DNA from: a virus
Lineage: Duplodnaviria; Caudoviricetes
Length of the DNA: 64,000 nt
IMG/VR virus record: IMGVR_UViG_3300045015_000053
Reading direction: 5' to 3' (one strand)
Each line of letters begins with the position of its first letter. Positions within the stretch are counted from its first letter, which is position 1. Shown here piece after piece: positions 4,870 through 53,389 of the stretch. The notes beneath the pieces were generated by a model. It had not been told where the DNA came from. It did no database searches and worked only from the letters and a program-made list of their open reading frames with translations. The position numbers and the translations under genes are program-made.

Positions 4870-6945
4870 ATGGCAGACATCGATCAAGTAGACGACACTG
4901 GTAGCGAAGAAGCGGTGGGAAGTCCGACTTTGGGCTTTCTTTACATCGGCGGCGGCACCATCTACGTCGGTAGCATTGGTAGTAACGTACCAAGCAACCG
5001 ACTGGATTTTCCGCTGGAGCTTTCTTGGTCCGTTAACAAGACGATCTCCTCCAAGCTCAGTTTCGAGTGGTCGGTAGGGGAACAGCCGAACTATTGGTTC
5101 CGTGTCGTCGGCGATTGCCAGCAGACCGACCAGTGCAGTTCTTCGATGCCGATCAGCACCCCTCAGCGTTGCATGCAGGGGTCTTACTTCATGACGATGG
5201 TGTTGGCGACATCCCCACAAGACGTGTGCCGTCAGCTTTCCAAGAGCAATTTCGTTTGGCGTATCACGGAGATGGGGCGGTTTTCCACCCCTGCGAACGC
5301 CGAAACAGCAAGGGCGATGGCAGACGCGGGGTTGATCGACCTCAACTGTAACACCCTGATTCCGGTTCCGTTCTCGCAGTTCGCCGACTGCTTGCAATTC
5401 AACTTGTCGGGCGACGAAGTCGTCGCTGTCGGCGGTTACATGAAGGTGTACGACACCTTCTTCAGCTACGAAGGCACGGGCGGTTTCGCGATCTCAGGAT
5501 CGGCCGAAAGCCCAGACCCGAACGAACTGGAAGGGAGCGGCGGGTTCCACCTCGGCGGCGGCGCGACCTACACGTCTACTCAGTTCAACTACGTTGGAAG
5601 TGGCGGATTCCACATCGGCGGCGGTGCGTCGAATACGAGCAGTCAGTTCAACGTTTCCGGCAGCGGCGGGATTCACGTCGGCGGCAGTGCGGACGTTACT
5701 TCTACGCAGTTCGATGCGGAAGGCGAAGGCGGATTCCATCTAGGCGGCAGTGCCGAATCCGTAGTCAGGTTGTCGTTCACTTCGAGCGGGTACGGAATTT
5801 TCGGCCCCACTTTTGCGGGCGTCCAGTTGAAGGGTTCTGCGGCCGTCGCCGCACAATACTACTTCAGCTACGAAGGGACGGGCGGGTTCCACATCGGCGG
5901 GTCCGGTGTCGGCGCGAGCAGTCAATTCAACGCAGAGGGCAGCGGCGGGTTCCACATCGGCGGTGAAGTTTTGACGACTTCCCCCGATTACAACCCCGAA
6001 GGTAGTGGCGGGTTTGAACTCGGCGGCGGTGCCGAGTCGTCTTTCAGTCTGGAGGCGTCCGGCAGCGGCGGCGCTCACCTGGGCGGCAGTGCGTTGACTT
6101 CTTTGAAGTTGCCGGCGGTTGGTAGTGGCGGGTTCCACATCGGCGGCGGCGGGTTGGGCAACAGGTTCTTCGGTAGCGGCGGCTTCCACTTGGGCGGCAG
6201 TGCCGTTGTCGATTCGACTTGGAAGGGCGAGTACATTGACGAGGCCGGTTGGGACGCCGTTTGTTTGGATCTTTCTCCGAACTTCGGTGCGGGGACGCCG
6301 ACCCTTTATGTTCCGACCGTATCGACCGTGAATGTTTGCGGTGCGAGGGGCATACCCACTAGCTTGCAAGTGGTTCAGAATTTCTCCGGGTCGAAGTTGC
6401 TGGACAACTTCCTGACCCGCAACGGACTGACCTTCCCGAACATTTTGAAGATCAGCTATCGCCGGTCCAGTGGGACTTGGCACGGCACATACCAGTACCG
6501 TGGTGCGGCCAACGACGTTTCGCGCGAGCGGTGGAACTTCTTCGTGGAGTTCGGTTGTGTGTCGGACGCCTACGGCCTTTCGGTTTCGCCGGTTTGGAAG
6601 TTCGACTTCAACGTGACGCGGGTCAACGAGCAGAGCGGACTCAGCTTCGACACGCGGATCTTGTCGTATTTCAATACCGAACCGCTGTCTGGCTACTTTA
6701 ACAAGAATGGCGTGGACCTGAACCTGGGATTGAATCCGAAGACGAAGGTCTTGAACATCATTTCCTCGAACGCGGTTCTCCAAGAGGTGACGCTGTTCGA
6801 CGGCATCGGACTTTTCTCGCCGGCCGCGTGGGGAACGAAGGACTTCCAGTACCGCGTACAACTGGTCGGCACCTTCAGTCAGTCGCCGAGCTACGACATC
6901 TTCCCGGTCTTCCCGAAACCGGAGGAGTACGCAGTAACAGTTTGA
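4870..6945 (+). CDS. large glycine-rich repeat protein, probable virion/tail component
   Basis: 691 aa with repeated GSGGFH(I/L)GG; TAAATA 5 nt upstream of ATG. Confidence 0.75.
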   Translation: MADIDQVDDTGSEEAVGSPTLGFLYIGGGTIYVGSIGSNVPSNRLDFPLELSWSVNKTISSKLSFEWSVGEQPNYWFRVVGDCQQTDQCSSSMPISTPQRCMQGSYFMTMVLATSPQDVCRQLSKSNFVWRITEMGRFSTPANAETARAMADAGLIDLNCNTLIPVPFSQFADCLQFNLSGDEVVAVGGYMKVYDTFFSYEGTGGFAISGSAESPDPNELEGSGGFHLGGGATYTSTQFNYVGSGGFHIGGGASNTSSQFNVSGSGGIHVGGSADVTSTQFDAEGEGGFHLGGSAESVVRLSFTSSGYGIFGPTFAGVQLKGSAAVAAQYYFSYEGTGGFHIGGSGVGASSQFNAEGSGGFHIGGEVLTTSPDYNPEGSGGFELGGGAESSFSLEASGSGGAHLGGSALTSLKLPAVGSGGFHIGGGGLGNRFFGSGGFHLGGSAVVDSTWKGEYIDEAGWDAVCLDLSPNFGAGTPTLYVPTVSTVNVCGARGIPTSLQVVQNFSGSKLLDNFLTRNGLTFPNILKISYRRSSGTWHGTYQYRGAANDVSRERWNFFVEFGCVSDAYGLSVSPVWKFDFNVTRVNEQSGLSFDTRILSYFNTEPLSGYFNKNGVDLNLGLNPKTKVLNIISSNAVLQEVTLFDGIGLFSPAAWGTKDFQYRVQLVGTFSQSPSYDIFPVFPKPEEYAVTV
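5470..6201 (+). repeat. intragenic ~19-20-aa GSGGFH(I/L)GG repeats
   Basis: More than ten degenerate copies in the translation. Confidence 0.85.
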
Positions 6946-15635: not shown

Positions 15636-15707
15636 GGGGAGCAGGTGTCAAGGGACACGTCCTGGCTAATCACCGGGAAGAGTGGGGTTCGATTCCCCGG
15701 CTCCCCT
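15636..15707 (+). tRNA. tRNA-Ile(AAT)
   Basis: Acceptor GGGGAGC/GCTCCCC; CCTGG-CT AAT CA-CCGGG; T loop TTCGATT. Confidence 0.65.
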
Positions 15708-15736
15708 CTGGCGATGGGGATATACCCCTCGCCTCT

Positions 15737-15827
15737 CACTCGCAACATTTTTGACCCGGTCGGGGTGCGATCCCCGTGGGTATGCAGTAGCGGGTGTACA
15801 TTCATGAAAAGCGGAGGGACGTAATGT
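15737..15827 (+). ncRNA. tRNA-associated RNA module, permuted copy 2
   Basis: CACTCGC..TTTTTG-ACCC[T-arm-like hairpin]GGGT-ATG..GCGGGTG-TACATT..AATGT. Confidence 0.5.
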
Positions 15828-27393: not shown

Positions 27394-27690
27394 ATGAAAC
27401 GGCAAAAGATCAAGCTCGAAGGCGGTCCACTGGATGGCGCGGAGATGGAGGTCGATGAACACATCTTCAAGTCCATCTTGGCTCAAGGTGGGCTGACGCT
27501 GGAGTGGCCCTTCGAGGAAGAAAAGTTCGATCCGATGAAGTTTACAGTCAGGGCGAACAAACCCGTGACGTATCAGGATCGAGGAATGTCGTCAATCGAT
27601 GATCAACCGATTTACGACTACGAATCGGCGTACCCTCTGTGGTACGAAAACGACAAGGACCAGATCATGGAAATGATCAAAGGTAATTAA
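27394..27690 (+). CDS. hypothetical protein
   Basis: GAGG RBS; LEGGPLDG motif. Confidence 0.65.
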   Translation: MKRQKIKLEGGPLDGAEMEVDEHIFKSILAQGGLTLEWPFEEEKFDPMKFTVRANKPVTYQDRGMSSIDDQPIYDYESAYPLWYENDKDQIMEMIKGN

Positions 27691-27699
27691 GTTGATCTT

Positions 27700-27832
27700 G
27701 TTGTGGTAGCTCAGTAGTAGAGCAGCGGACATGGCGAAAGCCTGTTGTCTCGCAATTTTTGCCCGCAAGGGATGCCTGATGGGATTACATTTTAATCCGC
27801 CGGTCGCAGGGTGCGAATCCTTGCCCACAACA
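27700..27832 (+). tRNA. tRNA-Lys(TTT) interrupted by a 59-nt insert (RNA module copy 3)
   Basis: GCGGA-C[27731-27789]TTTTAA-TCCGC; removing 59 nt restores a 7-nt loop. Confidence 0.75.
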
Positions 27833-27838
27833 CTAGAC

Positions 27839-27913
27839 TGCCGAAGATTCAGTGCTGGTACTGTAGTTCGCCTTTGAAGCGAAATGTCTCAGGTTCGATT
27901 CCTGATTCGGCAA
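27839..27913 (+). tRNA. tRNA-Gln(TTG)
   Basis: TTCGC-CT TTG AA-GCGAA. Confidence 0.85.
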
Positions 27914-27918
27914 CTTAC

Positions 27919-27992
27919 CAGGGCGTGGGAAAGCTTGGAAATCCGCTTGCGTCGGAAGCAAGAGATCGGCGGTTCAAATCCGCCCGCCCTGA
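27919..27992 (+). tRNA. tRNA-Pro(CGG)
   Basis: CTTGC-GT CGG AA-GCAAG. Confidence 0.85.
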
Positions 27993-27995
27993 CTT

Positions 27996-28066
27996 CGGGG
28001 ATTGGTATAGTGGAAGCACACATGCTTCGGGAGCATGTAGCGCAGGTTCGATTCCTGTATCCCCGA
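27996..28066 (+). tRNA. tRNA-Pro(CGG)
   Basis: CATGC-TT CGG GA-GCATG; weak D stem. Confidence 0.75.
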
Positions 28067-28116
28067 CTGAATAGGAAGGAATAGGAAAGCCTTCCGAAAT
28101 GATCGAAGTAAAACAT

Positions 28117-28191
28117 TGTCGAGGATTGAGTGCTGGTACTCTTGTCTGCCTCTGAAGCAGAATGTCTCAGGTTCGATTCCTGACTCGACAA
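28117..28191 (+). tRNA. tRNA-Gln(CTG)
   Basis: TCTGC-CT CTG AA-GCAGA. Confidence 0.85.
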
Positions 28192-28244
28192 CTAGATTGG
28201 CTCTGAGATTTGTGTTTTTCAGAGCCGACTTGCTAAGATAGTGT

Positions 28245-28664
28245 ATGAAGAAATGCACTATTTGTCGGCAAGATAAGGCTCTTGCCGACTTCAACAAAAA
28301 GCCAAGTACAAAAGACGGATACCAGACAAAGTGTCGCAAGTGCAGTAAGCGTCTTGCAAAGGCGCGGTACTACGACAATCGCGACACTGAAATGAAAAGA
28401 ATCAAGGACCGTCAAGAAGATCTTGCTAATCGGTTTTATGAATTCAAGCGAACTTTGCGGTGCGAGTTTTGTCCTGAGACAACAGCTTGCTGTTTGGACT
28501 TCCATCACCGCGACCCGAACTCGAAGGAATTCAACATCGCATTCGCTTGTCGCCAGGGTTACTCTTGGGACAAGCTCATGGAGGAAGTGAATAAGTGTGT
28601 GGTGGCCTGTGCGAACTGTCACAGGAAGATACATCACGGTTTGATTGATTGCCCGCTCGTATAA
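28245..28664 (+). CDS. HNH endonuclease, tRNA-associated family
   Basis: CTICRQ...CRKC; CEFC...CLDFHH...KCVVACANCHRKIH; stop codon inside the next tRNA. Confidence 0.9.
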   Translation: MKKCTICRQDKALADFNKKPSTKDGYQTKCRKCSKRLAKARYYDNRDTEMKRIKDRQEDLANRFYEFKRTLRCEFCPETTACCLDFHHRDPNSKEFNIAFACRQGYSWDKLMEEVNKCVVACANCHRKIHHGLIDCPLV

Positions 28665-28720
28665 CGGTAGTACAACTGACTCTGACTCAGTTAGTGAAGG
28701 TTCGACTCCTTCGTGGGCAT
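28650..28720 (+). tRNA. tRNA-Gln(CTG)
   Basis: ACTGA-CT CTG AC-TCAGT. Confidence 0.9.
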
Positions 28721-28725
28721 CTGAC

Positions 28726-28796
28726 TGAGGAATCATCTAATGGTAGGATGCAAGGCTTTGACCCTTGTCGTGGCGGTTCGAGTCCGTCTTCCTCAA
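28726..28796 (+). tRNA. tRNA-Gln(TTG)
   Basis: CAAGG-CT TTG AC-CCTTG. Confidence 0.9.
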
Positions 28797-28798
28797 CT

Positions 28799-28856
28799 TC
28801 CGACATGTTAGGAGAGAACACGCCAAGTGCGGCAGGTTCGAGGTCTGCTGTCGGAT
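28799..28856 (+). ncRNA. 58-nt tRNA-like RNA lacking a D arm
   Basis: Acceptor TCCGACA/TGTCGGA, T-arm-like GCAGG-TTCGAGG-TCTGC, small CAC-GCCAA-GTG hairpin. Confidence 0.45.
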
Positions 28857-28858
28857 AC

Positions 28859-28929
28859 GCGGGATTCGTTTAGTGGCAAGATCCAACTTTCCCAAAGTTG
28901 AGTCGCCGGTTCGATTCCGGCATCCCGTA
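28859..28929 (+). tRNA. tRNA-Gly(CCC)
   Basis: CAACT-TT CCC AA-AGTTG. Confidence 0.9.
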
Positions 28930-28933
28930 CTGT

Positions 28934-29006
28934 GGGCCATTGGCATGTCTGGCGATTGCAGCGGACTGTTAACCCGCCGAGGTTGGTTCGATTCCAACAT
29001 GGCCCT
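28934..29006 (+). tRNA. tRNA-Asn(GTT)
   Basis: GCGGA-CT GTT AA-CCCGC. Confidence 0.85.
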
Positions 29007-29026
29007 CTCGCTCCAAGAAAGGCAAC

Positions 29027-29281
29027 ATGAGCAAGACAACGTATTACCGGCAGTGCCGACTTCAACGCGGCAATTGCCACCAAGTGAGTTGGATTCCCGA
29101 ACCGTACTGCGTCAAGGACAAAGTCCTGAAGCTCAAGAACAGTGACGGTGTTTGGGAGAACGGATGGGTGGTGAAGGGAGCCGGAACCAACCGGATCACC
29201 GACGTGCCGCACGCCGAAGGTTTGATTCGCGCACACCGGAAAGCTACTGGTGATTCGCTGCCGAAAGGTCCGAACAATTGA
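29027..29281 (+). CDS. hypothetical protein
   Basis: 84-aa ORF within tRNA cluster. Confidence 0.7.
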   Translation: MSKTTYYRQCRLQRGNCHQVSWIPEPYCVKDKVLKLKNSDGVWENGWVVKGAGTNRITDVPHAEGLIRAHRKATGDSLPKGPNN

Positions 29282-29346
29282 AACAGGGGCAGGGTTTAGC
29301 CACCCTGATCGGTCGGGAGTAGCTACCCCGCCCGTGGCCCCTACAC

Positions 29347-29417
29347 GCGGGATTCGTTAAGTGGTAAGACGCATGCTTGCCAAGCATGAGACGCCGGTTC
29401 GATTCCGGCATCCCGCA
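29347..29417 (+). tRNA. tRNA-Gly(GCC)
   Basis: CATGC-TT GCC AA-GCATG. Confidence 0.9.
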
Positions 29418-29544
29418 CTCCGATTTTGAAGGCTCTGGTTCCCCTTGTGGGTGGTAAAAAGATCGCGCATAATCATCACGTTGCTGCGATTGGGCTGTAG
29501 AAATCGAAACCCCCAATGTCTGCGTAGCAGACAGGGAGTAAGTG

Positions 29545-30720
<1,176 letters not shown>

Positions 30721-30783
30721 AGATCTAGTAGTTAAACAGGGGGAGAACTGGCCCCCACCCCGTCGCGAGACGGGGCTACTGAT

Positions 30784-30854
30784 GGCCCTATAGTCTAGTG
30801 GCAGGACGTAACCCTCTCAAGGTTAAGATTGGAGTTCGATTCTCCATAGGGTCA
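30784..30854 (+). tRNA. tRNA-Glu(CTC)
   Basis: TAACC-CT CTC AA-GGTTA. Confidence 0.9.
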
Positions 30855-30903
30855 CAGGCTCGACTACGTCCGACGCTCAGTTTTTCGGACGTTATAATTT
30901 GTC

Positions 30904-31329
30904 ATGGAGAAGACATGTTACAAGTGTAAACAATTGAAGCTTGCGGACGAGTTCTCGAAAGATACTCGGAGTAAAGATGGGTTGTGTGCGGCTTGTAGAG
31001 CTTGCCGAAGCGAGCTTAAAAAGCAGTATTACAACCGCGAACATGATGGCTTGAGGATCAAGCAGCTTGAGAAGCGTCGGAAGCTTCAGGATTGGGTTAG
31101 CACATTCAAGAAAGAGTGTAGTGTTTGCGGAGAGGATCATCCGGCTTGTTTGGATTTTCATCATGATGGCGAGAAGGAAGCAGGTATTGCCAACATGATC
31201 AATCGCAACAATATGACCGACGAAATGAGATCGAAGGTTTTGGCTGAGATCGCCAAATGCAAAGTCTTGTGTTCAAACTGTCACAGGAAGTTGCACTGGA
31301 AAGAAAGAAGAGAAGGCCCATTCGTCTAG
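30904..31329 (+). CDS. HNH endonuclease, tRNA-associated family
   Basis: CSVCG...CLDFHH...KCKVLCSNCHRKLH; TATAAT 5 nt upstream; stop inside the next tRNA. Confidence 0.9.
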   Translation: MEKTCYKCKQLKLADEFSKDTRSKDGLCAACRACRSELKKQYYNREHDGLRIKQLEKRRKLQDWVSTFKKECSVCGEDHPACLDFHHDGEKEAGIANMINRNNMTDEMRSKVLAEIAKCKVLCSNCHRKLHWKERREGPFV

Positions 31330-31385
31330 TGGTAGGACATCAGATTTTCACTCTGACAACCGGAGTTCAATTCTCCGATGGGTCA
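31315..31385 (+). tRNA. tRNA-Glu(TTC)
   Basis: TCAGA-TT TTC AC-TCTGA. Confidence 0.9.
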
Positions 31386-31441
31386 CTCAAAAGAAAGAAA
31401 CGAATCGGTATATACCCCACAGGCCGAACACAAGGGGTTTC

Positions 31442-32113
31442 ATGTTTAGTTTCAAAGAATGGTTTGACGAGTCTCTAAAGTGGGATTACCTCGCGAGCGA
31501 AGCCGAGTTGTATCCCGAAGGGTTCCGTGATTTTGCGAACCGGATGCTCGGCCGCAAAAAGAAGCCGATGGATTTGCCAGACGACGGCACGTTGCCGATG
31601 GCTGCGTCCGAAAAGAATCCGGCCGTCTATCCGGGGATGAACAATCCCAGAGACGCAATCGCAGCCACCAAAGACAAACCGGCGGTTTACCCAGGCGTGA
31701 ACAACCGAAGGGACGCGATTGCGGCGACCAAAGACAAGCCGGCCGTGTATCCGGGTGTGAACAACCCAAGAGATCCGATTGCGGCTACGAAGAACAAGCC
31801 GGCCGTGTACCCAGGCGAGAACGACGAAAAGCTCCCGATGGGACACGAGTTGAATAGCGTTATGCACGTTTACAAGCAGGTGCAGGACGGTATCACACGG
31901 ATCTGGAAGGATGACGCTGTGAGGGCGTTGTTCAAAAACGATCCGAGCGGAACGAATCAAAAGAAGGCCGACGACTTGGTGAAGTCTTGGAACGCCTTCA
32001 AAGATGTCATCAACCAACAGTCCAAGTTCCAACAAGGCAGAGGCAAACCACCAGAATTGCCGATGCCGGCTCGTCAACGGGCGGCTAACCGCGACGATCA
32101 CTGGAGGGGTTGA
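31442..32113 (+). CDS. repeat protein with capsid-targeting-like N-terminus
   Basis: MFSFKEWFDES; 20-aa repeats. Confidence 0.75.
   Translation: MFSFKEWFDESLKWDYLASEAELYPEGFRDFANRMLGRKKKPMDLPDDGTLPMAASEKNPAVYPGMNNPRDAIAATKDKPAVYPGVNNRRDAIAATKDKPAVYPGVNNPRDPIAATKNKPAVYPGENDEKLPMGHELNSVMHVYKQVQDGITRIWKDDAVRALFKNDPSGTNQKKADDLVKSWNAFKDVINQQSKFQQGRGKPPELPMPARQRAANRDDHWRG
31610..31822 (+). repeat. intragenic 60-bp (20-aa) tandem repeat, ~3.5 copies
   Basis: K(D/N)(K/N)PAVYPG(V/M)NN(P/R)RD(A/P)IAAT. Confidence 0.85.
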
Positions 32114-32204
32114 AAATCGCCGCCGCGTCGATTACGCGGCCAGTTAGAAGTCAAAAGCGACATCTGTAAAATGTCATTGCTCACTGACACGAAAGTGTCT
32201 TAAT

Positions 32205-32332
32205 GCCGGGTTAGCTCAGTGGCAGAGCGCGTAAAAGTTGACTCACCACATTTTGCCCGCAAGGGATGACTCGATGGGTTTACATTCCATTCCCAGGACG
32301 AGGTCGCGAAGTTCGATTCTTCGCTCCCGGCT
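32205..32332 (+). tRNA. tRNA-like RNA with RNA module (copy 4) in anticodon arm
   Basis: Acceptor GCCGGG/CCCGGC, normal D and T arms; insert GACTC..TTTTG-CCC-GCAA-GGG-ATG..GGGTTTACAT. Confidence 0.65.
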
Positions 32333-32338
32333 TTATCT

Positions 32339-32417
32339 GTCGTAGGAACCTAAATTCGCGTGGTGCGGAGCGGGCCTGCAAAGCTTGTGGTAAGGGGTTC
32401 GATTCCTCCCTACGACT
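32339..32417 (+). tRNA. tRNA-Cys(GCA), atypical D arm
   Basis: CGGGC-CT GCA AA-GCTTG; acceptor GTCGTAG/CTACGAC, U73. Confidence 0.65.
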
Positions 32418-32496
32418 CTTGATTCCGAAACGATCTGCAAAGCAACAGTTACGACCGTTGTTTTAGGCAGCTACTCATCGTCGGAAGTTCTCACAT

Positions 32497-32569
32497 GCCC
32501 CGTTTGCTACAATGGTGAAGCGCCTGTCTCTTAAACAGGTTACGGCCGGTTCGATCCCGGCACGGGGTA
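32497..32569 (+). tRNA. tRNA-Lys(CTT)
   Basis: CCTGT-CT CTT AA-ACAGG. Confidence 0.85.
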
Positions 32570-32601
32570 CTGATTCATGCTGTCTCTGATTTAGAAAGAT
32601 T

Positions 32602-32684
32602 GACTTGCACGCAGTAGTGGCATCTGCCTCTCGCTCTTAACGAGACGCCGTAAGGCATTCAGGGTTCAAGTCCCTGGCGAGTCA
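32602..32684 (+). tRNA. tRNA-Lys(CTT) with long variable arm
   Basis: TCTCG-CT CTT AA-CGAGA followed by GCC-GTAA-GGC hairpin. Confidence 0.7.
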
Positions 32685-32689
32685 CTGGA

Positions 32690-32865
32690 CCTGTGGTTAC
32701 TGCGAGTTCAATCTCGCAAAGATGGCGGGGACAAAAGCAGTCGTGGAAACACGGGGCTTCCCTGCGGAGGATCAGGTTGCCGACTGAAAGACATTACAGC
32801 GAGTTCAATCTCGCCCGGATGTGAAAAACCAACTGCAAAGACCACATACGCAGTGAAAGTCGGCA
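32690..32865 (+). ncRNA. unidentified structured RNA with two GCGAGTTCAATCTCGC hairpins
   Basis: Identical 16-mers at 32702 and 32799 (third copy at 26299). Confidence 0.45.
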
Positions 32866-32870
32866 CACAT

Positions 32871-32997
32871 TGTGGGGTAGCTCAGTGGTAGGGCGCGTAA
32901 AACTAGATTCGCGCCTTTTTGCCCTAACGGGATGTCCTTGCGGATTTACATTACATGTGAGGACGAGGATGTAAGGTTCGATTCCTTACCCCCACAG
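32871..32997 (+). tRNA. tRNA-like RNA with RNA module (copy 5) in anticodon arm
   Basis: Acceptor TGTGGGG/CCCCACA; GATTCGC..TTTTTG-CCC-TAAC-GGG-ATG..GCGGATT-TACAT-TAC-ATGT-GA. Confidence 0.65.
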
Positions 32998-33050
32998 CTA
33001 GTTGACGTTTGTGGCGAACCCACCGGGGTTCGCCACAACCTTTGATGAAT

Positions 33051-33262
33051 ACGTTGAGTGGCGAAACGAAGAACGCAGAGGGACCACAGAGAACGGTCGC
33101 TCGGCACGCTAACTCGCAGTACAACTTGGAGGACCGTGTCAGCGGTATCCTCTCAAGCTCTGGAGTGTCCTTGCGACACCCCCACTTCAGTGTGGGACCA
33201 TCTACGAGGCTGACCCCTGACAGGGAAGTGCAATGTGAGGTTTGAGTCCTCACCTCGACGTA
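33051..33262 (+). ncRNA. ~210-nt RNA with Leu-type tRNA ends and a large internal insert
   Basis: ACGTTGAG/CTCGACGT pairing, D-arm-like GCG..CGC, T arm GTGAGG-TTTGAGT-CCTCAC. Confidence 0.55.
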
Positions 33263-33266
33263 TAAC

Positions 33267-33339
33267 GGGCCATGAGTTCGGTTAGTAGAACATCCCCCTG
33301 TCACGGGGAAGGTTGCGGGTGCGACTCCCGTATGGCTCG
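33267..33339 (+). tRNA. tRNA-Asp(GTC)
   Basis: TCCCC-CT GTC AC-GGGGA. Confidence 0.9.
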
Positions 33340-33367
33340 CTTTTGTTTTTGTTGATATAATCGGGTC

Positions 33368-33994
33368 ATGCCATACAAAGACCCGCTTCGACAAAAAGAA
33401 GCCCAACGTCAACACTATCTCGCCAACAAGCAAAATTACATTTGCAGTCGGCGGAAAAATCGTGATGAACGAGATGTTTGGCTCGAAGAGTACAAGCGTG
33501 ACAAGAAATGCGTCAGATGCGGCGAACCCGATTCGAGATGTTTCGATTTCCACCATCCCGACGCCTCGAAAAAGCTGTTTCAAATAACCGAAGCTGTTAA
33601 GCAAGGTTATGCTCTTGGCAGGATCAAGGCTGAGATTGCGAAGTGCGAGATTCTCTGCGCCAACTGTCACCGCCTTGAACATTACCAAGAAAGAACGCCT
33701 GAAGATTACGCGAGGTCTTGGGTCGGCGAAAACGTTCTTTGGTTGCGTCAGCAGAAGTCCATGAGAGTCTGCATGAAATGCCAGACCGAAGATTGGAGAT
33801 TGCTAGACTTCCATCATCGTGACGGTGTCGAAAAGAAACAAACTCTTTCAAAGATGGCCGGAAGTGGCTGTTCGATTCAGGCTCTTTTGGAAGAGATCGC
33901 GAAGTGTGACGTGTACTGTGCCAACTGCCACAGGAAGCATCACAACAACAACAAATGGAAAGAAGCGTCTGTAAGAAAAGGCTCTATGGTGTAG
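33368..33994 (+). CDS. HNH endonuclease with two tandem HNH domains
   Basis: Two C..C...DFHH...KC.(IL/VY)CANCHR units; stop inside the next tRNA. Confidence 0.9.
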   Translation: MPYKDPLRQKEAQRQHYLANKQNYICSRRKNRDERDVWLEEYKRDKKCVRCGEPDSRCFDFHHPDASKKLFQITEAVKQGYALGRIKAEIAKCEILCANCHRLEHYQERTPEDYARSWVGENVLWLRQQKSMRVCMKCQTEDWRLLDFHHRDGVEKKQTLSKMAGSGCSIQALLEEIAKCDVYCANCHRKHHNNNKWKEASVRKGSMV

Positions 33995-34055: not shown

Positions 34056-34300
34056 TGGTTTGTCGGTATCAGTCTGCTTCGGCAGTGTCACCGACTTGAA
34101 CGTAGACGATGGTGCCTGTCAGGTTCGTCTAGCCGGTAACTGGGCTGCGTCGTGAAATAATCGACTATGGTCAAGGTGTGGTCCGACGAGGATAATCCAC
34201 CCGTTCGCGAACGGGCAGACAAGTGAATCGGCTTTTCATGCGACGGTGTGAAGAACCGAGGAACAGCCATACTGATATGGGGTTCGATTCCCCTGCGGTC
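34056..34300 (+). ncRNA. candidate structured RNA ending in a T-arm-like hairpin
   Basis: Hairpins CTGC-TTCG-GCAG, CCCG-TTCGCGAA-CGGG, GGGG-TTCGATT-CCCC; no 5' acceptor partner found. Confidence 0.35.
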
Positions 34301-34315
34301 CTCCTAAATACCCGC

Positions 34316-34906
34316 ATGATGAATTTCATGCTGTGGATCGAAGGTGTAGAAAATCGCGGGCCTCAAGGCACACCCAAAAGGGGTCGCGGGCCGCGAGAAG
34401 ACATTTACGAAGTGATGGAAGCCGGGATGCACCACGGCGTCATCGTCGGTCCCATGTGGGAATATGTCGCGAGACTCCACGGCGGCGCGGCGATGAACCA
34501 ACCGTCCGAAGCCGAGCGGGTGAAAAAACTCGCCGGCCAGATTTCCGGTTTCGGCGGATACTGGGAGCGGCCGATTGTTGACGAAGAAAACGTCGTCATG
34601 GAAGGCCAGCACCGGCTCGAAGCCGCAAGGCACTTGGGATACAAGAAGATCCCGATCATGCGAGTCATGGACCTCGGCCGCGTCTTCGGTTACGAACAAA
34701 TGGCTGCGGCGGCAAAAGCCGTGAAGCCGATGGGTGGCGATGCCCTTCAGCAGATTGTCGGTCGCGCCCTCGACACCTTGTACGAAGAGAAGGGCAACGT
34801 CGAAGAGGCTTTGCAGTACACTGTCGGTCGCGGGTACGATGACGCCTTCCACGCCGCGATCAATGCGGCGAAAAGGGCAAAGCTGCCGAACTACATAAAA
34901 GCATGA
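34316..34906 (+). CDS. ParB/Srx-like domain protein with capsid-targeting-like N-terminus
   Basis: RPIVDEENVVMEGQHRLEAARHLGYKKIPI; TAAATA 5 nt upstream. Confidence 0.75.
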   Translation: MMNFMLWIEGVENRGPQGTPKRGRGPREDIYEVMEAGMHHGVIVGPMWEYVARLHGGAAMNQPSEAERVKKLAGQISGFGGYWERPIVDEENVVMEGQHRLEAARHLGYKKIPIMRVMDLGRVFGYEQMAAAAKAVKPMGGDALQQIVGRALDTLYEEKGNVEEALQYTVGRGYDDAFHAAINAAKRAKLPNYIKA

Positions 34907-37353: not shown

Positions 37354-37655
37354 CTCGATGTAGTGTGAATCGCCGTACCCAGTAGGGCGGCGTGAAAGGG
37401 ACAGATAAGGCGTCCGAAAACGGCGTGTAACGTAGCAATGGGCAAATCGCTTTGTGCGAAACTAGAACTAAGGTTCTAGTTTCAGGCACGGCAACCATAA
37501 AAACCGTGAGCCAGAGGTAGGGTCTGGACAGGCACGCCGCCTAAGACGAGATAATGGTCTTCAGTAACGTCGTTCGGAAAGTATGGTAGGCCAGCACGCA
37601 GCTATGCACATTGCTACCGGAGGCTGAGGTTCAGGTTCGAGTCCTGACATCGAGA
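37354..37655 (+). ncRNA. 302-nt RNA with tRNA ends, ~225-nt D-loop insert and 18-nt anticodon loop
   Basis: Acceptor CTCGATG/CATCGAG-A-CT; D stem GTGT/GCAC; CAGCT/GGCTG; T arm TCAGG-TTCGAGT-CCTGA. Confidence 0.6.
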
Positions 37656-37657
37656 CT

Positions 37658-38058
37658 TTACAACTCGAATCCGTCATCAGGGTTGGTGGTCCGCAGAGGC
37701 GAAGATTCGCCGGTCGGTTGGGCCGGTTTCGGAGCGGTCGGTTCGACGTACTTCTTCTTGCGGTAGTATTCGTCGGCCTGGGCGATGACCTTCATCTGGG
37801 CGAGGATTTTGTTCGCGAGCTTTCTCGATGCGGTCTTGATGCCTTTGGACAGATCGCGAACGCTGTTCGCAACGTCGTGGTATGCTTTGAAAACCGGGTC
37901 GTGCGGGTCCAGGCTCATACCCCGCTCACGAATGAGGGAGTTATAATTGTTGTCGAGGCCGGTGGTCATGCCGTCGAGCGCTTGACGATTTGCCTGAGAA
38001 CGTCGTGGTTCTCTGTGTAAGGTGTGTTGGTTTCGAGCCAGTTTTTGAATGAACGCAT
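37658..38058 (-). pseudogene. frameshifted gene with capsid-targeting-like N-terminus
   Basis: MRSFKNWLETN frame stops at 37966; coding-like sequence continues in another frame from ~37982. Confidence 0.5.
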
Positions 38059-43204: not shown

Positions 43205-43278
43205 GGTGTGCGTGGTGTAGTGGCTTTGCACGTTTCCCTGTGAAGGAAAAGGTGGCGGATCGTAACCGCTCGCACACC
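43205..43278 (+). tRNA. tRNA-His(GTG)
   Basis: G-1:C73 8-bp acceptor; TTTCC-CT GTG AA-GGAAA; atypical T loop ATCGTAA. Confidence 0.8.
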
Positions 43279-43345
43279 CTAGTCGAGATGACAGACAGGA
43301 GTACATTCACTACTCGTTCTCTTGTCAACTTATTGCTCGGCTTAT

Positions 43346-43413
43346 GCCCCGCCCTGCGGTCAGGTTCGGAGTCTACGAAACTCTGAAGTTCCGTTCGACT
43401 CGGAAGCGGGGTA
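43346..43413 (+). tRNA. tRNA-Arg(ACG), compact
   Basis: GGAGT-CT ACG AA-ACTCT; acceptor GCCCCGC/GCGGGGT. Confidence 0.7.
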
Positions 43414-43416
43414 CTT

Positions 43417-43487
43417 GCCCGGTCCAGCGGTTTACCGGCACTGAGCTTGCGAAGCTCGGTTGCGTGGTTCGACTCCACGACAGGGTA
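43417..43487 (+). tRNA. tRNA-Arg(GCG)
   Basis: TGAGC-TT GCG AA-GCTCG. Confidence 0.7.
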
Positions 43488-43491
43488 CTCG

Positions 43492-43553
43492 GTGAGATGA
43501 ACGTAGGGATTACATTGGTTATGTGAAATCTCTACAACCTTTTTGCTCATCAC
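43492..43553 (+). ncRNA. tRNA-associated RNA module, copy 7
   Basis: GTGAG-ATG..GTAGGGATT-ACAT..ATGT-GA-AATCTCTAC..TTTTTG-CTCAT. Confidence 0.65.
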
Positions 43554-52429: not shown

Positions 52430-53389
52430 ATGAACTTCGTCGGTTTCCCAAGCATCGAGAGTTTTCATCACATCGTTCGTTACGCTGCGGCGTACCCGGA
52501 CGCGATCAAGGCTCCCGTTCGTTACCGGGGCAAGGTGAAACTCCACGGCACGAACGCCGGCATCCGCGTCGTCAACGGCGAGGTGCAGGCTCAGTCCCGT
52601 AGCCAACTGATCACACCGCAGTCCGACAACGCCGGGTTCGCGCGGTGGGTGGACGGAAACAAGGACTTCTGGCCGGTTCTGAACGCGACCCTCCCCGACT
52701 GCACCGTCTTCGGCGAGTGGGCCGGGCCGGGCATCATGAAGGGTACGGCGATCAACCAAGCGGCCGGCAAATTCTTCGCCGTGTTCGCCATCTACACGCC
52801 GACCGAGATCATCGCCGACCCCGCCGAGATCGCGGCTCTGCTCCCTAACCGTCCGGCCGACGTTCACATTCTGCCGTGGTACGGGGAAGAGTTCGAGGTG
52901 GACTACTGCAACGAAGCCTCGATGCGTCGGACGGTGCCGAACCTGAACGCGGTGGTCGAGACGGTCGAGAAGTGCGACCCGTGGGCGAAGGAAGTTCTGG
53001 GCGTCGAAGGCGTCGGCGAGGGCGTGGTGTACTACCCGCAGACCCGCGACAGCGAGGTGTTCAAGACCCTCGTGTTCAAGGCGAAGGGCGAACAGCACCG
53101 CGTCGTCAAGGCGAAGGAAGCCGTGCAAATGGCTCCCGAAGTCGCCGAGAACATCACCGCGTTCGTGACGATGTTCGTCACCCCGGCGCGACTAGAACAG
53201 GGGCTGGCGGCGGTGGGCGGGCAAGCTCTCATGCCGAAGATGAAGGACTTCCTTCAGTGGATGATGGGGGACGTGGTCAAGGAAAGCAAGGCGGAACTGG
53301 AGGCTTCGGGCATGAAGTGGGAACAGGTCGATAAGGCCGTTCTCAAGGCGTGCCGCGAGTGGTTTATCCAGAAGAGTCGCACCGTCTAA
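52430..53389 (+). CDS. RNA ligase, Rnl2 family
   Basis: KLHGTN (motif I), FGEWAG (III), GEGVV (IV), FKAK (V). Confidence 0.85.
   Translation: MNFVGFPSIESFHHIVRYAAAYPDAIKAPVRYRGKVKLHGTNAGIRVVNGEVQAQSRSQLITPQSDNAGFARWVDGNKDFWPVLNATLPDCTVFGEWAGPGIMKGTAINQAAGKFFAVFAIYTPTEIIADPAEIAALLPNRPADVHILPWYGEEFEVDYCNEASMRRTVPNLNAVVETVEKCDPWAKEVLGVEGVGEGVVYYPQTRDSEVFKTLVFKAKGEQHRVVKAKEAVQMAPEVAENITAFVTMFVTPARLEQGLAAVGGQALMPKMKDFLQWMMGDVVKESKAELEASGMKWEQVDKAVLKACREWFIQKSRTV

What the first reader, a model, noticed from the sequence alone, without database searches (positions are those of the whole stretch)
32205..32997. Two tRNA/module chimeras with no clean anticodon
Seen: 32205-32332 and 32871-32997 have canonical acceptor, D and T arms and share the junctions GCGCGTAAAA and GGACGAGG. 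The anticodon stem is only 3 bp (CGT/ACG) before opening into the module. Hypothetical excision gives imperfect loops (possibly TCC and TGT/GTG). Inference: tRNA-shaped scaffolds presenting the module (decoys or EF-Tu/synthetase ligands) rather than decoding tRNAs.
Basis: partly seen in the sequence, partly recalled or inferred. Interest (0 to 1): 0.65.

Follow-up and report, generated by a model that had tools for sequence, protein, structure and literature searches.

The report
tRNA-shaped partner RNAs of phage Ro60
The two odd genes are real: each is a complete tRNA body with a conserved, folded 54-base "handle" set into its anticodon stem. In many unrelated phages this handle lies right behind the gene for a Ro60-type RNA-binding ring protein, so these are most likely a new kind of tRNA-mimicking Y RNA, not ordinary decoding tRNAs.

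Summary
Observation confirmed and extended. Window 32205-32332 and 32871-32997 are tRNA-shaped genes (7-bp acceptor, D arm, 6-bp T stem) with a 54-nt insert in the 5' strand of the anticodon stem. The stem is split, not 3 bp: CG | insert | UCC pairs with GGACG. A third copy lies at 27700-27832, a fourth about 17 kb beyond the window, and a weak free-standing copy at 15734-15802.

The insert is a structured RNA family with no Rfam match. It has helix Pb, hairpin Pc flanked by invariant UUG and AUG, and a 3' UUACAU. Across 38 distinct sequences 99% of cells pair, and 8 of 9 pairs show compensatory changes.

It occurs only in phage contigs. Those phages share one divergent Ro60/Rsr subfamily (the G000 and G033 proteins align at E 5e-93; Rsr structure 2NVO matches at 5e-18). 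In at least 7 contig groups the insert sits 0.1-1 kb downstream of that gene on the same strand, alone, in tandem, inside tRNAs, or with tRNAs nested inside it.

Best reading (about 0.6): Y-RNA-like handle-tRNA fusions bound by the phage Ro60. Main rival (about 0.25): a new mini-intron, since removing it restores canonical Phe, Gly, His, Arg and Met anticodon arms. No expression data could be obtained. This scan earlier noted other Ro60-linked handle RNAs on other phage DNA.

The parts
32205..32332 (+). Chimera tl1: a complete tRNA body (acceptor GCCGGGU/UCCCGGC, D arm, 6-bp T stem) with the handle set into the anticodon stem. The distal hairpin is UCC-AUUCCCA-GGA (anticodon-like UCC).
   Evidence: 76 bits; in-silico removal gives ARAGORN tRNA-Gly(tcc), 74 nt
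32232..32285 (+). Handle (module) of tl1. It comprises 5' linker UAAAAGUU, Pb 32240-32245 / 32275-32280, UUUUG, Pc 32256-32258 / 32263-32265 (GCAA loop), invariant AUG 32266-32268, and tail UACAU 32281-32285.
32871..32997 (+). Chimera tl2: the same design as tl1, with acceptor UGUGGGG/CCCCACA. The distal hairpin is degenerate (UAC AUGUGA GGA; 6-nt loop, one mismatch). The orthologue L108 is intact with a GUG loop.
   Evidence: (69 bits)
32898..32951 (+). Handle of tl2: Pb 32905-32913 / 32939-32947, Pc CCC-UAAC-GGG, AUG, and tail ACAU 32948-32951.
27700..27832 (+). Chimera tl3: a tRNA body with an intact 5-bp anticodon stem GCGGA/UCCGC. The handle (27731-27790, with an extra 5' GGC-GAAA-GCC hairpin) sits in the anticodon loop. 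Removing it leaves a Lys-type UUU loop (CAUUUAA or CUUUUAA).
   Evidence: (59 bits)
15734..15802 (+). Weak, free-standing handle-like unit, not inside a tRNA. Pb is CACUCGC/GCGGGUG, an extra hairpin sits in the Pc loop, and the tail is GUACAUU.
   Evidence: 21.6 bits, E about 0.05-0.09; tentative

Best explanation
tl1 and tl2, together with tl3 and tl4, are non-coding RNAs of the Y-RNA type.

Anatomy:
- Each is a full tRNA body that should fold into the L shape.
- Being tRNA-shaped, it should be cut out of the tRNA-array transcript by RNase P and RNase Z like its neighbours.
- Its anticodon arm carries a roughly 50-nt handle.
- The handle consists of helix Pb, an internal loop with invariant UUG...AUG around hairpin Pc, and a single-stranded (U/C)UACAU tail.

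Proposed mechanism: the handle is the docking site for the phage's own Ro60/Rsr-like ring protein (TROVE + vWA, G000:132725-134518). The tRNA part then acts as the second module of the particle. It would serve as a tether or gate that links Ro60 to tRNA-binding or RNA-decay machinery, or to the phage's own tRNA pool. This parallels YrlA-Rsr-PNPase particles in bacteria and the Yrl-Ro60-PNPase complex of Thermus phage phiLo.

Shown:
- the fold and its covariation;
- restriction of the family to phage contigs;
- co-occurrence with one Ro60 subfamily;
- position directly downstream of that gene in many relatives;
- occurrence of the handle without tRNA and around tRNAs.

Inferred:
- transcription and processing;
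- physical binding to Ro60;
- the role of the tRNA part.
For: (1) The handle is a real structured RNA. In 38 distinct sequences 99.1% of cells are paired and 8 of 9 pairs have changes on both sides. The covariation score is 0.669 against at most 0.174 when partners are slid.

(2) No Rfam family matches it.

(3) It was found only in phage contigs. There were 13 pattern matches in 185,579 prokaryote genomes, and none passed the model.

(4) Every module-carrying record at least 98% complete encodes one Ro60-like subfamily, and so does G000: G000, G003, G031-G035.
- G000 vs G033: 29% identity over the full length, E 5e-93.
- G000 vs G003: 50% identity.
- The TROVE proteins of the non-carriers G004 and G021 are only remote (E 2e-3 and 3e-18).
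- The G000 protein matches solved Rsr 2NVO (5e-18) and Ro60 structures 9NEN and 1YVP (about 4e-13).

(5) Among 17 loci fetched by that protein, all 16 model hits are on the gene's strand, 0.1-1.2 kb downstream of it. This is the criterion used to find bacterial Y RNAs (PMC4201824).

(6) The handle also occurs in other arrangements:
- free-standing or in tandem behind the gene (L149, L158, L156);
- replacing the anticodon arm outright (G003:4898-4945);
- with ARAGORN-called tRNA-Gly and tRNA-Glu nested in its Pc loop (L156).
None of these fits an intron.

(7) The chimeras duplicate anticodons already supplied by intact genes:
- G000: Gly UCC, Lys UUU, His GUG, Ile AAU;
- G001: Phe;
- G003: Arg UCG, Val UAC, Met.

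(8) About half of the loop types break tRNA rules (C37, U37, A33, G33; 5-, 6- and 9-nt loops; double-length arms).

(9) Complete carrier genomes G031 and G033 have no RtcB, Rnl1, Rnl2 or splicing endonuclease.

(10) Published precedent: Y RNAs that mimic tRNA, including in phages (PMC4201824), and a phage Ro60 that binds phage-encoded Y-like RNAs (PMC12135203).
Against: - In G000 itself the Ro60-like gene is followed by a terminator, not by a handle. The chimeras lie 10-65 kb away, so for this genome the link is co-occurrence only.
- G001 has a chimera but no Ro60-like gene in its 52% of the genome.
- The handle lacks the known Ro-binding motifs (GGUCCGA; GNCGAAN0-1G/CGAA). Only tl3's extra hairpin happens to read GGCGAAAG.
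- The Ro60-like genes sit inside tRNA clusters, so some adjacency to tRNA-like genes would arise anyway.
- Looping out the handle restores a perfect 5-bp stem and 7-nt loop in at least 10 different stems. Several are canonical (Phe CUGAAAA, Gly AUUCCAA, His CUGUGGA, Arg AUUCGGA, Met CUCAUAA). This is what an intron would look like.
- In G003 near-identical handles sit at the same stem position in three different tRNA bodies, which suggests precise mobility.
- There are no transcript or binding data.
Confidence: 0.6

Rival explanations
1. The insert is a new class of mobile mini-intron (47-60 nt) in phage tRNA genes. It would be cut out just before the A-rich 5' linker and right after UUACAU. 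The nick in the anticodon stem or loop would then be sealed by a phage Rnl2/Rnl1-type or host ligase, or the RNA would splice itself. The products would be working tRNAs such as Gly(UCC) from tl1. The Ro60-like protein might act as a chaperone for this step.
For: - In-silico removal restores 5-bp stems and 7-nt loops in at least 10 stem contexts, with compensatory changes across the split: CG|UCC-GGACG, GG|UCC-GGACC, ACG|GC-GCCGU, C|UCCU-AGGAG, CU|UCC-GGAAG, C|UUCU-AGAAG, U|UUCA-UGAAA.
- ARAGORN then calls tRNA-Gly, Phe, His, Ile, Lys, Arg, Val and Ser.
- The Phe, Gly, His, Arg and Met loops are canonical.
- In L053 the junction is unambiguous (GGG|AAAAAC...UUACAU|UCC).
- G000 and G003 encode Rnl2-like (PF09414) and Rnl1-like (PF09511) ligases. 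A nick in a duplex stem is the preferred Rnl2 substrate (own knowledge).
- Near-identical inserts lie at position 28/29 of three different tRNAs in G003.
- 'Enigmatic' introns in phage tRNAs have been reported (PMC6784885).
Against: - The same element occurs free-standing, in tandem arrays, replacing the anticodon arm, and with whole tRNAs nested inside it.
- The Leu-type chimeras do not regain a normal arm on removal.
- The 3' cut would have to shift by one base in L082 and perhaps L051.
- Complete carriers G031 and G033 lack RtcB, Rnl1, Rnl2 and EndA.
- No bulge-helix-bulge motif is present and no ribozyme family matches.
- The one intron-less allele searched for (the CGGCUAA type) was not found in IMG/VR.
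- No GTCCAT....AGGAC paralogue exists in five genomes.
- The chimeras are mostly redundant with intact tRNAs.
- Many loops have a pyrimidine at position 37 or a non-U at position 33.
Confidence: 0.25
2. The chimeras are tRNA genes inactivated by insertion of a small selfish or repetitive element. On this view they are pseudogenes with no function of their own.
For: - tl2 has a damaged anticodon arm compared with its orthologue L108.
- The chimeras are redundant with intact tRNAs.
- The array is full of homing-endonuclease cassettes that disrupt tRNA genes (earlier notes e1-5377840 and e1-5377928; HNH hits).
Against: - Acceptor, D, T and handle helices keep pairing through many compensatory changes between copies and between distant phages.
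- The anticodon hairpin UUCA-CGGCUAA-UGAAA is invariant across diverged bodies and handles.
- The family persists from GC-rich phages of about 0.5 Mb to AT-rich phages of about 185 kb.
Confidence: 0.07
3. The handle is a processing or folding signal of the polycistronic tRNA-array transcript, for example a structured spacer or a self-cleaving element. It would be independent of Ro60.
For: - Handles lie between and around tRNAs in arrays.
- Small ribozymes are known next to phage tRNAs (own knowledge: HDV-like theta ribozymes).
- The conserved single-stranded UUG, AUG and UACAU could form an active site.
Against: - No known ribozyme family matches at E up to 5.
- This does not explain the strict co-occurrence with one Ro60 subfamily across unrelated phages.
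- Most phage tRNA arrays searched lack it.
Confidence: 0.08

Closest known systems
YrlA-type bacterial and phage Y RNAs bound by Rsr/Ro60 (Rfam RF02553; Chen et al. 2014, PMC4201824)
   Same: A non-coding RNA that combines a Ro60-associated element with a tRNA-like domain (D and T arms, acceptor). It is encoded near the Ro60 gene on the same strand, and phages also carry it.
   Different: - Topology: in YrlA the 5'/3' ends form the Ro-binding stem where the anticodon stem would be, and the acceptor is closed by a loop. Here the acceptor is open as in a true tRNA, an anticodon-like hairpin is usually kept, and the handle is a side branch of the anticodon arm.
- Motif: the GNCGAAN0-1G motif is absent.
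- Rfam: there is no RF02553 match.
- Protein: the partner belongs to a divergent subfamily.
Thermus phage phiLo Ro60 with Yrl1/Yrl2 (PMC12135203; PDB 9KOP, 9L5Y)
   Same: A phage-encoded Ro60 ring with a vWA domain, plus phage-encoded partner RNAs next to the gene. That work shows them to form a complex with host PNPase.
   Different: - Yrl1 and Yrl2 are simple stem-bulge RNAs with a CGAA motif, upstream of the gene, with no tRNA body.
- The G000 protein matches 9KOP only weakly (E 3e-4).
'Enigmatic' introns of Lak megaphage tRNAs (Devoto et al. 2019, PMC6784885)
   Same: Short inserts in the anticodon region of huge-phage tRNA genes. They are conserved across genomes and too small to be group I introns.
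   Different: [quoted passage not shown]
- Here the insert is a Pb/Pc handle with a UUACAU tail. It mostly sits in the 5' strand of the anticodon stem, also occurs outside tRNAs, and is linked to a Ro60-like gene.
Engineered tRNA scaffolds for RNA expression (Ponchon and Dardel; own knowledge)
   Same: A foreign structured RNA is grafted into the anticodon arm of a tRNA, so that the chimera is processed and stabilised like a tRNA.
   Different: That is a laboratory design. This would be a natural counterpart, and it keeps a distal anticodon-like hairpin.

Membership tests
Y RNA / YrlA-like RNA (partner of Ro60/Rsr) | Encoded close to a Ro60/Rsr gene, on the same strand (within about 4 kb in PMC4201824) | tested here: inconclusive
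   Met in relatives: all 16 model hits in 17 Ro60-like loci lie 0.1-1.2 kb downstream on the same strand. In G031-G035 and G003 the distance is 0.3-1 kb. Not met in G000 itself: the gene is at 132725-134518 and the chimeras at 68.8-74.1 kb and 122.5 kb.
Y RNA / YrlA-like RNA (partner of Ro60/Rsr) | Physically bound by Ro60/Rsr | not testable with these tools
   Needs EMSA or co-immunoprecipitation; the complex-prediction tool takes proteins only.
Y RNA / YrlA-like RNA (partner of Ro60/Rsr) | Ro-binding sequence motif (GGUCCGA helix; bacterial GNCGAAN0-1G / CGAA) | tested here: not met
   The handle consensus has no such motif. Only the extra hairpin of tl3 reads GGCGAAAG. The Pb 5' strand (A/G)GUCUCA resembles GGUCCGA only loosely.
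Y RNA / YrlA-like RNA (partner of Ro60/Rsr) | tRNA-like domain with D and T arms | tested here: met
   The Rfam tRNA model scores the AT-rich chimeras at 39-47 bits across the insert.
Y RNA / YrlA-like RNA (partner of Ro60/Rsr) | Match to Rfam RF02553 (YrlA) or RF00019 (Y_RNA) | tested here: not met
   No hit at E up to 5 on window 27600-33400, nor at E up to 0.5 around nine Ro60-like genes.
Ro60/Rsr protein (the proposed partner) | TROVE ring domain plus Ro60-type vWA domain | tested here: met
   G000 ORF: PF25045 52.6 bits (cut-off 27.7) and PF05731 31.6 bits (cut-off 23). PDB 2NVO E 5e-18, and 9NEN E 3e-13 over residues 19-552.
Canonical decoding tRNA | Continuous 5-bp anticodon stem, 7-nt loop with U33 and a purine at position 37 | tested here: not met
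   The stem is interrupted by 54 nt. After notional removal tl1 has C37 and tl2 has a 6-nt loop and a mismatch. Rfam tRNA gives no hit for tl1 or tl2.
Group I intron in tRNA | Ribozyme core of about 200 nt or more (P3-P8), matching Rfam Intron_gpI | tested here: not met
   The insert is 47-60 nt, with no Rfam hit.
Archaeal/eukaryal protein-spliced tRNA intron | Bulge-helix-bulge motif at the splice sites and an EndA-type endonuclease | tested here: not met
   By inspection the junctions lie 1-8 nt 5' and 4-5 nt 3' of Pb, with no 3-nt bulges spaced by 4 bp. PF01974 is absent from 5 carriers, 3 of them complete.

The most novel reading that the evidence does not exclude
The handle is a genuinely new kind of bacterial-virus intron. 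On this reading a structured element of about 50 nt inserts precisely into the anticodon stem or loop of tRNA genes and is removed from the RNA. Removal would be either self-catalysed, or done with the Ro60-like ring as the recognition factor and a ligase to seal the nick. Ro60 would then control when a second set of phage tRNAs becomes active.
Probability: 0.2. Interest if true: 0.9.

Novelty: new variant of a known kind. Interest (0 to 1): 0.68.

Why it matters
Ro60-Y RNA particles are conserved from bacteria to humans, yet what their tRNA-like modules do is still open. Here a phage lineage appears to have built such RNAs the other way round, by grafting a Ro60-linked handle into otherwise complete tRNAs with varied anticodon-like hairpins.

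This gives a natural series for asking what the tRNA half is for. The series runs from handle alone, to handle in tRNA, to tRNA in handle.

It also flags a family of RNA genes that tRNA finders and Rfam miss, or mis-call as intron-bearing tRNAs, in huge-phage genomes.

If the rival reading were right instead, it would be a new intron class in viruses of bacteria.

Tried and rejected
- Known RNA families for the insert: none, including hammerhead, twister, pistol, hatchet, HDV, group I, YrlA and Y_RNA.
- Phage GenBank blastn of the region: no match.
- First exact patterns in IMG/VR gave only a chance hit in a coding region. A later pattern found the first true relative.
- Scan of 26 EF-Tu-bearing phage records: no handle.
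- Bacterial and archaeal genomes: the pattern matches did not pass the model.
- A-run/U-run pseudoknot idea: dropped, because the A-rich 5' linker is not conserved in the AT-rich group.
- Bulge-helix-bulge, RNase P/Z 'mini-tRNA' and IS200/IS605-type readings were considered by inspection and rejected. The Pc loop is a tetraloop, not a T loop. The junction distances do not fit. There is no conserved target tetranucleotide.
- Intron-less alleles: not found for the one type searched. Two pattern hits for a GTCCAT....AGGAC arm were coding sequence.
- In-silico deletion scan with ARAGORN is too permissive to fix the exact junctions.
- Second model R2 did not recover the divergent units with large Pc insertions. 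A loose regex showed 5.3-fold enrichment downstream of the gene.

Full report
**Setting.** The window is G000:C1:41123-105122 of a 188-kb IMG/VR virus record, estimated 37% complete, so it comes from a huge phage with 56% G+C. ARAGORN finds 44 tRNA genes in the window, all on the + strand. The array also holds an EF-Tu gene and an Rnl2-type RNA ligase gene.

**The observation.**
- Both elements are as described.
- Each has a 7-bp acceptor, a standard D arm, a T loop UUCGAUU with a 6-bp T stem, and a 54-nt insert after GCGCG.
- ARAGORN and the Rfam tRNA model miss them.
- The anticodon stem is split, not 3 bp. C27-G28 lie before the insert and U29-C30-C31 directly after it, and together they pair with GGACG.
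- tl1 then shows a 7-nt loop AUUCCCA. tl2 shows UAC/AUGUGA, with one mismatch and a 6-nt loop.
- A pattern search and a scan for unannotated T arms gave a third copy (window 27700-27832, insert in the anticodon loop of a Lys-type arm) and a fourth (G000:122501-122624).

**The insert is a structured RNA family.**
- Hand comparison showed a helix Pb that covaries between copies: GACUCA/UGGGUU, GUCUCG/UGGGAU, AUCUCGA/UUGGGAU and AGAUUCGCG/UGCGGAUUU.
- Pb encloses a hairpin Pc (GCCC-NNNN-GGG) and is followed by UACAU.
- A covariance model built from five copies found further members:
  - five in a complete 533-kb phage, G003;
  - several in complete AT-rich phages of about 185 kb, G031-G035;
  - many in metagenome contigs.
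- On 38 distinct sequences 99.1% of cells pair, and 8 of 9 pairs change on both sides. Pc runs CCC/GGG, UCC/GGA, UCU/AGA and UUC/GAA. Sliding the partners destroys the signal.
- UUG before Pc, AUG after it and UUACAU at the end are nearly invariant.
- RNAalifold on six full chimeras recovers the cloverleaf plus Pb, Pc and the distal 3-bp/7-nt hairpin.
- No Rfam family matches, and no bacterial or archaeal genome holds it.

**First reading: an intron.**
- The relative in G001 becomes a textbook tRNA-Phe arm (CUCCU CUGAAAA AGGAG) once the insert is removed.
- The same holds for Gly AUUCCAA, His CUGUGGA, Arg AUUCGGA and Met CUCAUAA arms.
- The split stems covary across the insert.
- G000 and G003 encode Rnl1- and Rnl2-type ligases.
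- Phage tRNA introns of unknown mechanism have been reported (PMC6784885).

These observations did not fit that reading:
- About half the loop types have C37, U37, A33 or G33, or loops of 5, 6 or 9 nt.
- The Leu-type chimeras end up with a double-length arm.
- One G003 copy replaces the anticodon arm and variable loop outright.
- One G000 copy is free-standing.
- Complete carriers G031 and G033 have no RtcB, Rnl1, Rnl2 or EndA.
- In G000 and G001 every chimera duplicates an anticodon already supplied by an intact gene, and in G003 three of four do.

**The turn.**
- Annotating the genes around three tandem chimeras in G033 showed that the gene just upstream is a Ro60/Rsr orthologue.
- The same subfamily is present in G000 (597 aa; PF25045 and TROVE above cut-off; 2NVO E 5e-18), in G003 and in G031-G035.
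- G000 and G033, phages of very different size and composition, share it at E 5e-93. The TROVE proteins of the handle-less relatives G004 and G021 are only remotely similar.
- Using the protein to fetch 17 loci, every one of the 16 model hits lay on the gene's strand, 0.1-1.2 kb downstream.
- By eye and by a pairing script, further loci show compact free-standing units and tandem arrays behind the gene.
- In L156, ARAGORN-called tRNA-Gly and tRNA-Glu are nested inside the Pc loop of handle units.
- Position next to rsr on the same strand is how bacterial Y RNAs were found, and those RNAs mimic tRNA (PMC4201824).
- A phage Ro60 has been shown to bind phage-encoded Y-like RNAs and host PNPase (PMC12135203).

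**Conclusion.**
- The most economical explanation is that the module is the handle of a Y-RNA-like family that partners a phage Ro60 subfamily, and that tl1 and tl2 are handle-tRNA fusions.
- They are not members of YrlA. The topology is inverted, the known Ro-binding motif is absent and RF02553 does not match. I therefore file them as a new variant of the known kind.
- In G000 itself the link is co-occurrence only. Its Ro60-like gene ends in a terminator and the nearest chimera is 10 kb away.
- The intron reading stays alive at about one in four, mainly because of the precise restoration of anticodon arms and the apparent spread of near-identical handles to the same stem position in G003.
- No expression data could be obtained.
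- Earlier notes of this scan describe other Ro60-linked handle RNAs (stem plus ACAGCAA) carrying tRNA parts on other phage DNA. I saw them after reaching the Ro60 lead. They agree in concept but concern a different handle.

Noticed in passing
window 29542-30720 (+): A full-length EF-Tu gene (three Pfam domains, E 3e-53) sits inside the phage tRNA array. Relatives with 52-74% identity occur in 37 IMG/VR phage contigs.
   Followed up: partly
window 52430-53389 (+); G000:169976-170395: The phage encodes an Rnl2-type RNA ligase (PF09414, in the window) and an Rnl1-type ligase (PF09511, outside the window). G003 has three PF09414 genes and one PF09511 gene.
   Followed up: partly
window 32340-32412 (+): Between tl1 and the Lys tRNAs lies another tRNA-like element with a good acceptor (GUCGUAGG/CCUACGAC) and T arm but no proper D arm and a G.U-rich anticodon stem. 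Rfam tRNA-Sec scores only 21 bits.
   Followed up: no
window 32690-32830 (+): Two copies of a T-arm-like hairpin GCGAGUUCAAUCUCGC lie about 95 nt apart, downstream of an 84-nt tRNA-Lys(CUU). These may be tRNA remnants.
   Followed up: no
window 15636-15708 (+); tl4 (G000:122501-122624); L118; L070: Anticodons starting with A (AAU, AUG, AUA) recur in these phages' tRNA and tRNA-like genes. This is unusual for bacteria, where A34 is normally confined to tRNA-Arg(ACG).
   Followed up: no
window 32301-32332, 32966-32997, 27795-27832: The G000-lineage chimeras have a 6-bp T stem with a 7-bp acceptor, a 13-bp stack as in tRNA-Sec. An ordinary tRNA of the same phage checked by eye has the usual 7/5 arrangement. 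This might keep them off EF-Tu.
   Followed up: partly
L156 13490-14170 (IMGVR_UViG_3300034782_000062): Reverse nesting: complete tRNA-Gly(GCC) and tRNA-Glu(CUC) genes lie inside the Pc loop of handle units, which in turn lie inside an outer tRNA-like frame.
   Followed up: partly
L134 (G033:109000-121000), minus strand 6050-6700: In the AT-rich phages the order is Ro60-like gene, tRNA-Pro(UGG), three consecutive chimeras, then a small P-loop kinase-like gene (AAA_28, 175 aa) and an HNH gene.
   Followed up: partly
L151 and L159, just downstream of the Ro60-like gene: In two lineages the next gene looks like a cytidine-deaminase-type enzyme (CAER...PCGACRQ motif read from the DNA), not a handle RNA.
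   Followed up: no
window 37436-37670, 43268-43500, 34083-34320: Several well-formed T-arm hairpins with acceptor-like 3' ends have no ARAGORN or Rfam call. They may belong to further split, nested or HNH-disrupted tRNA genes.
   Followed up: no
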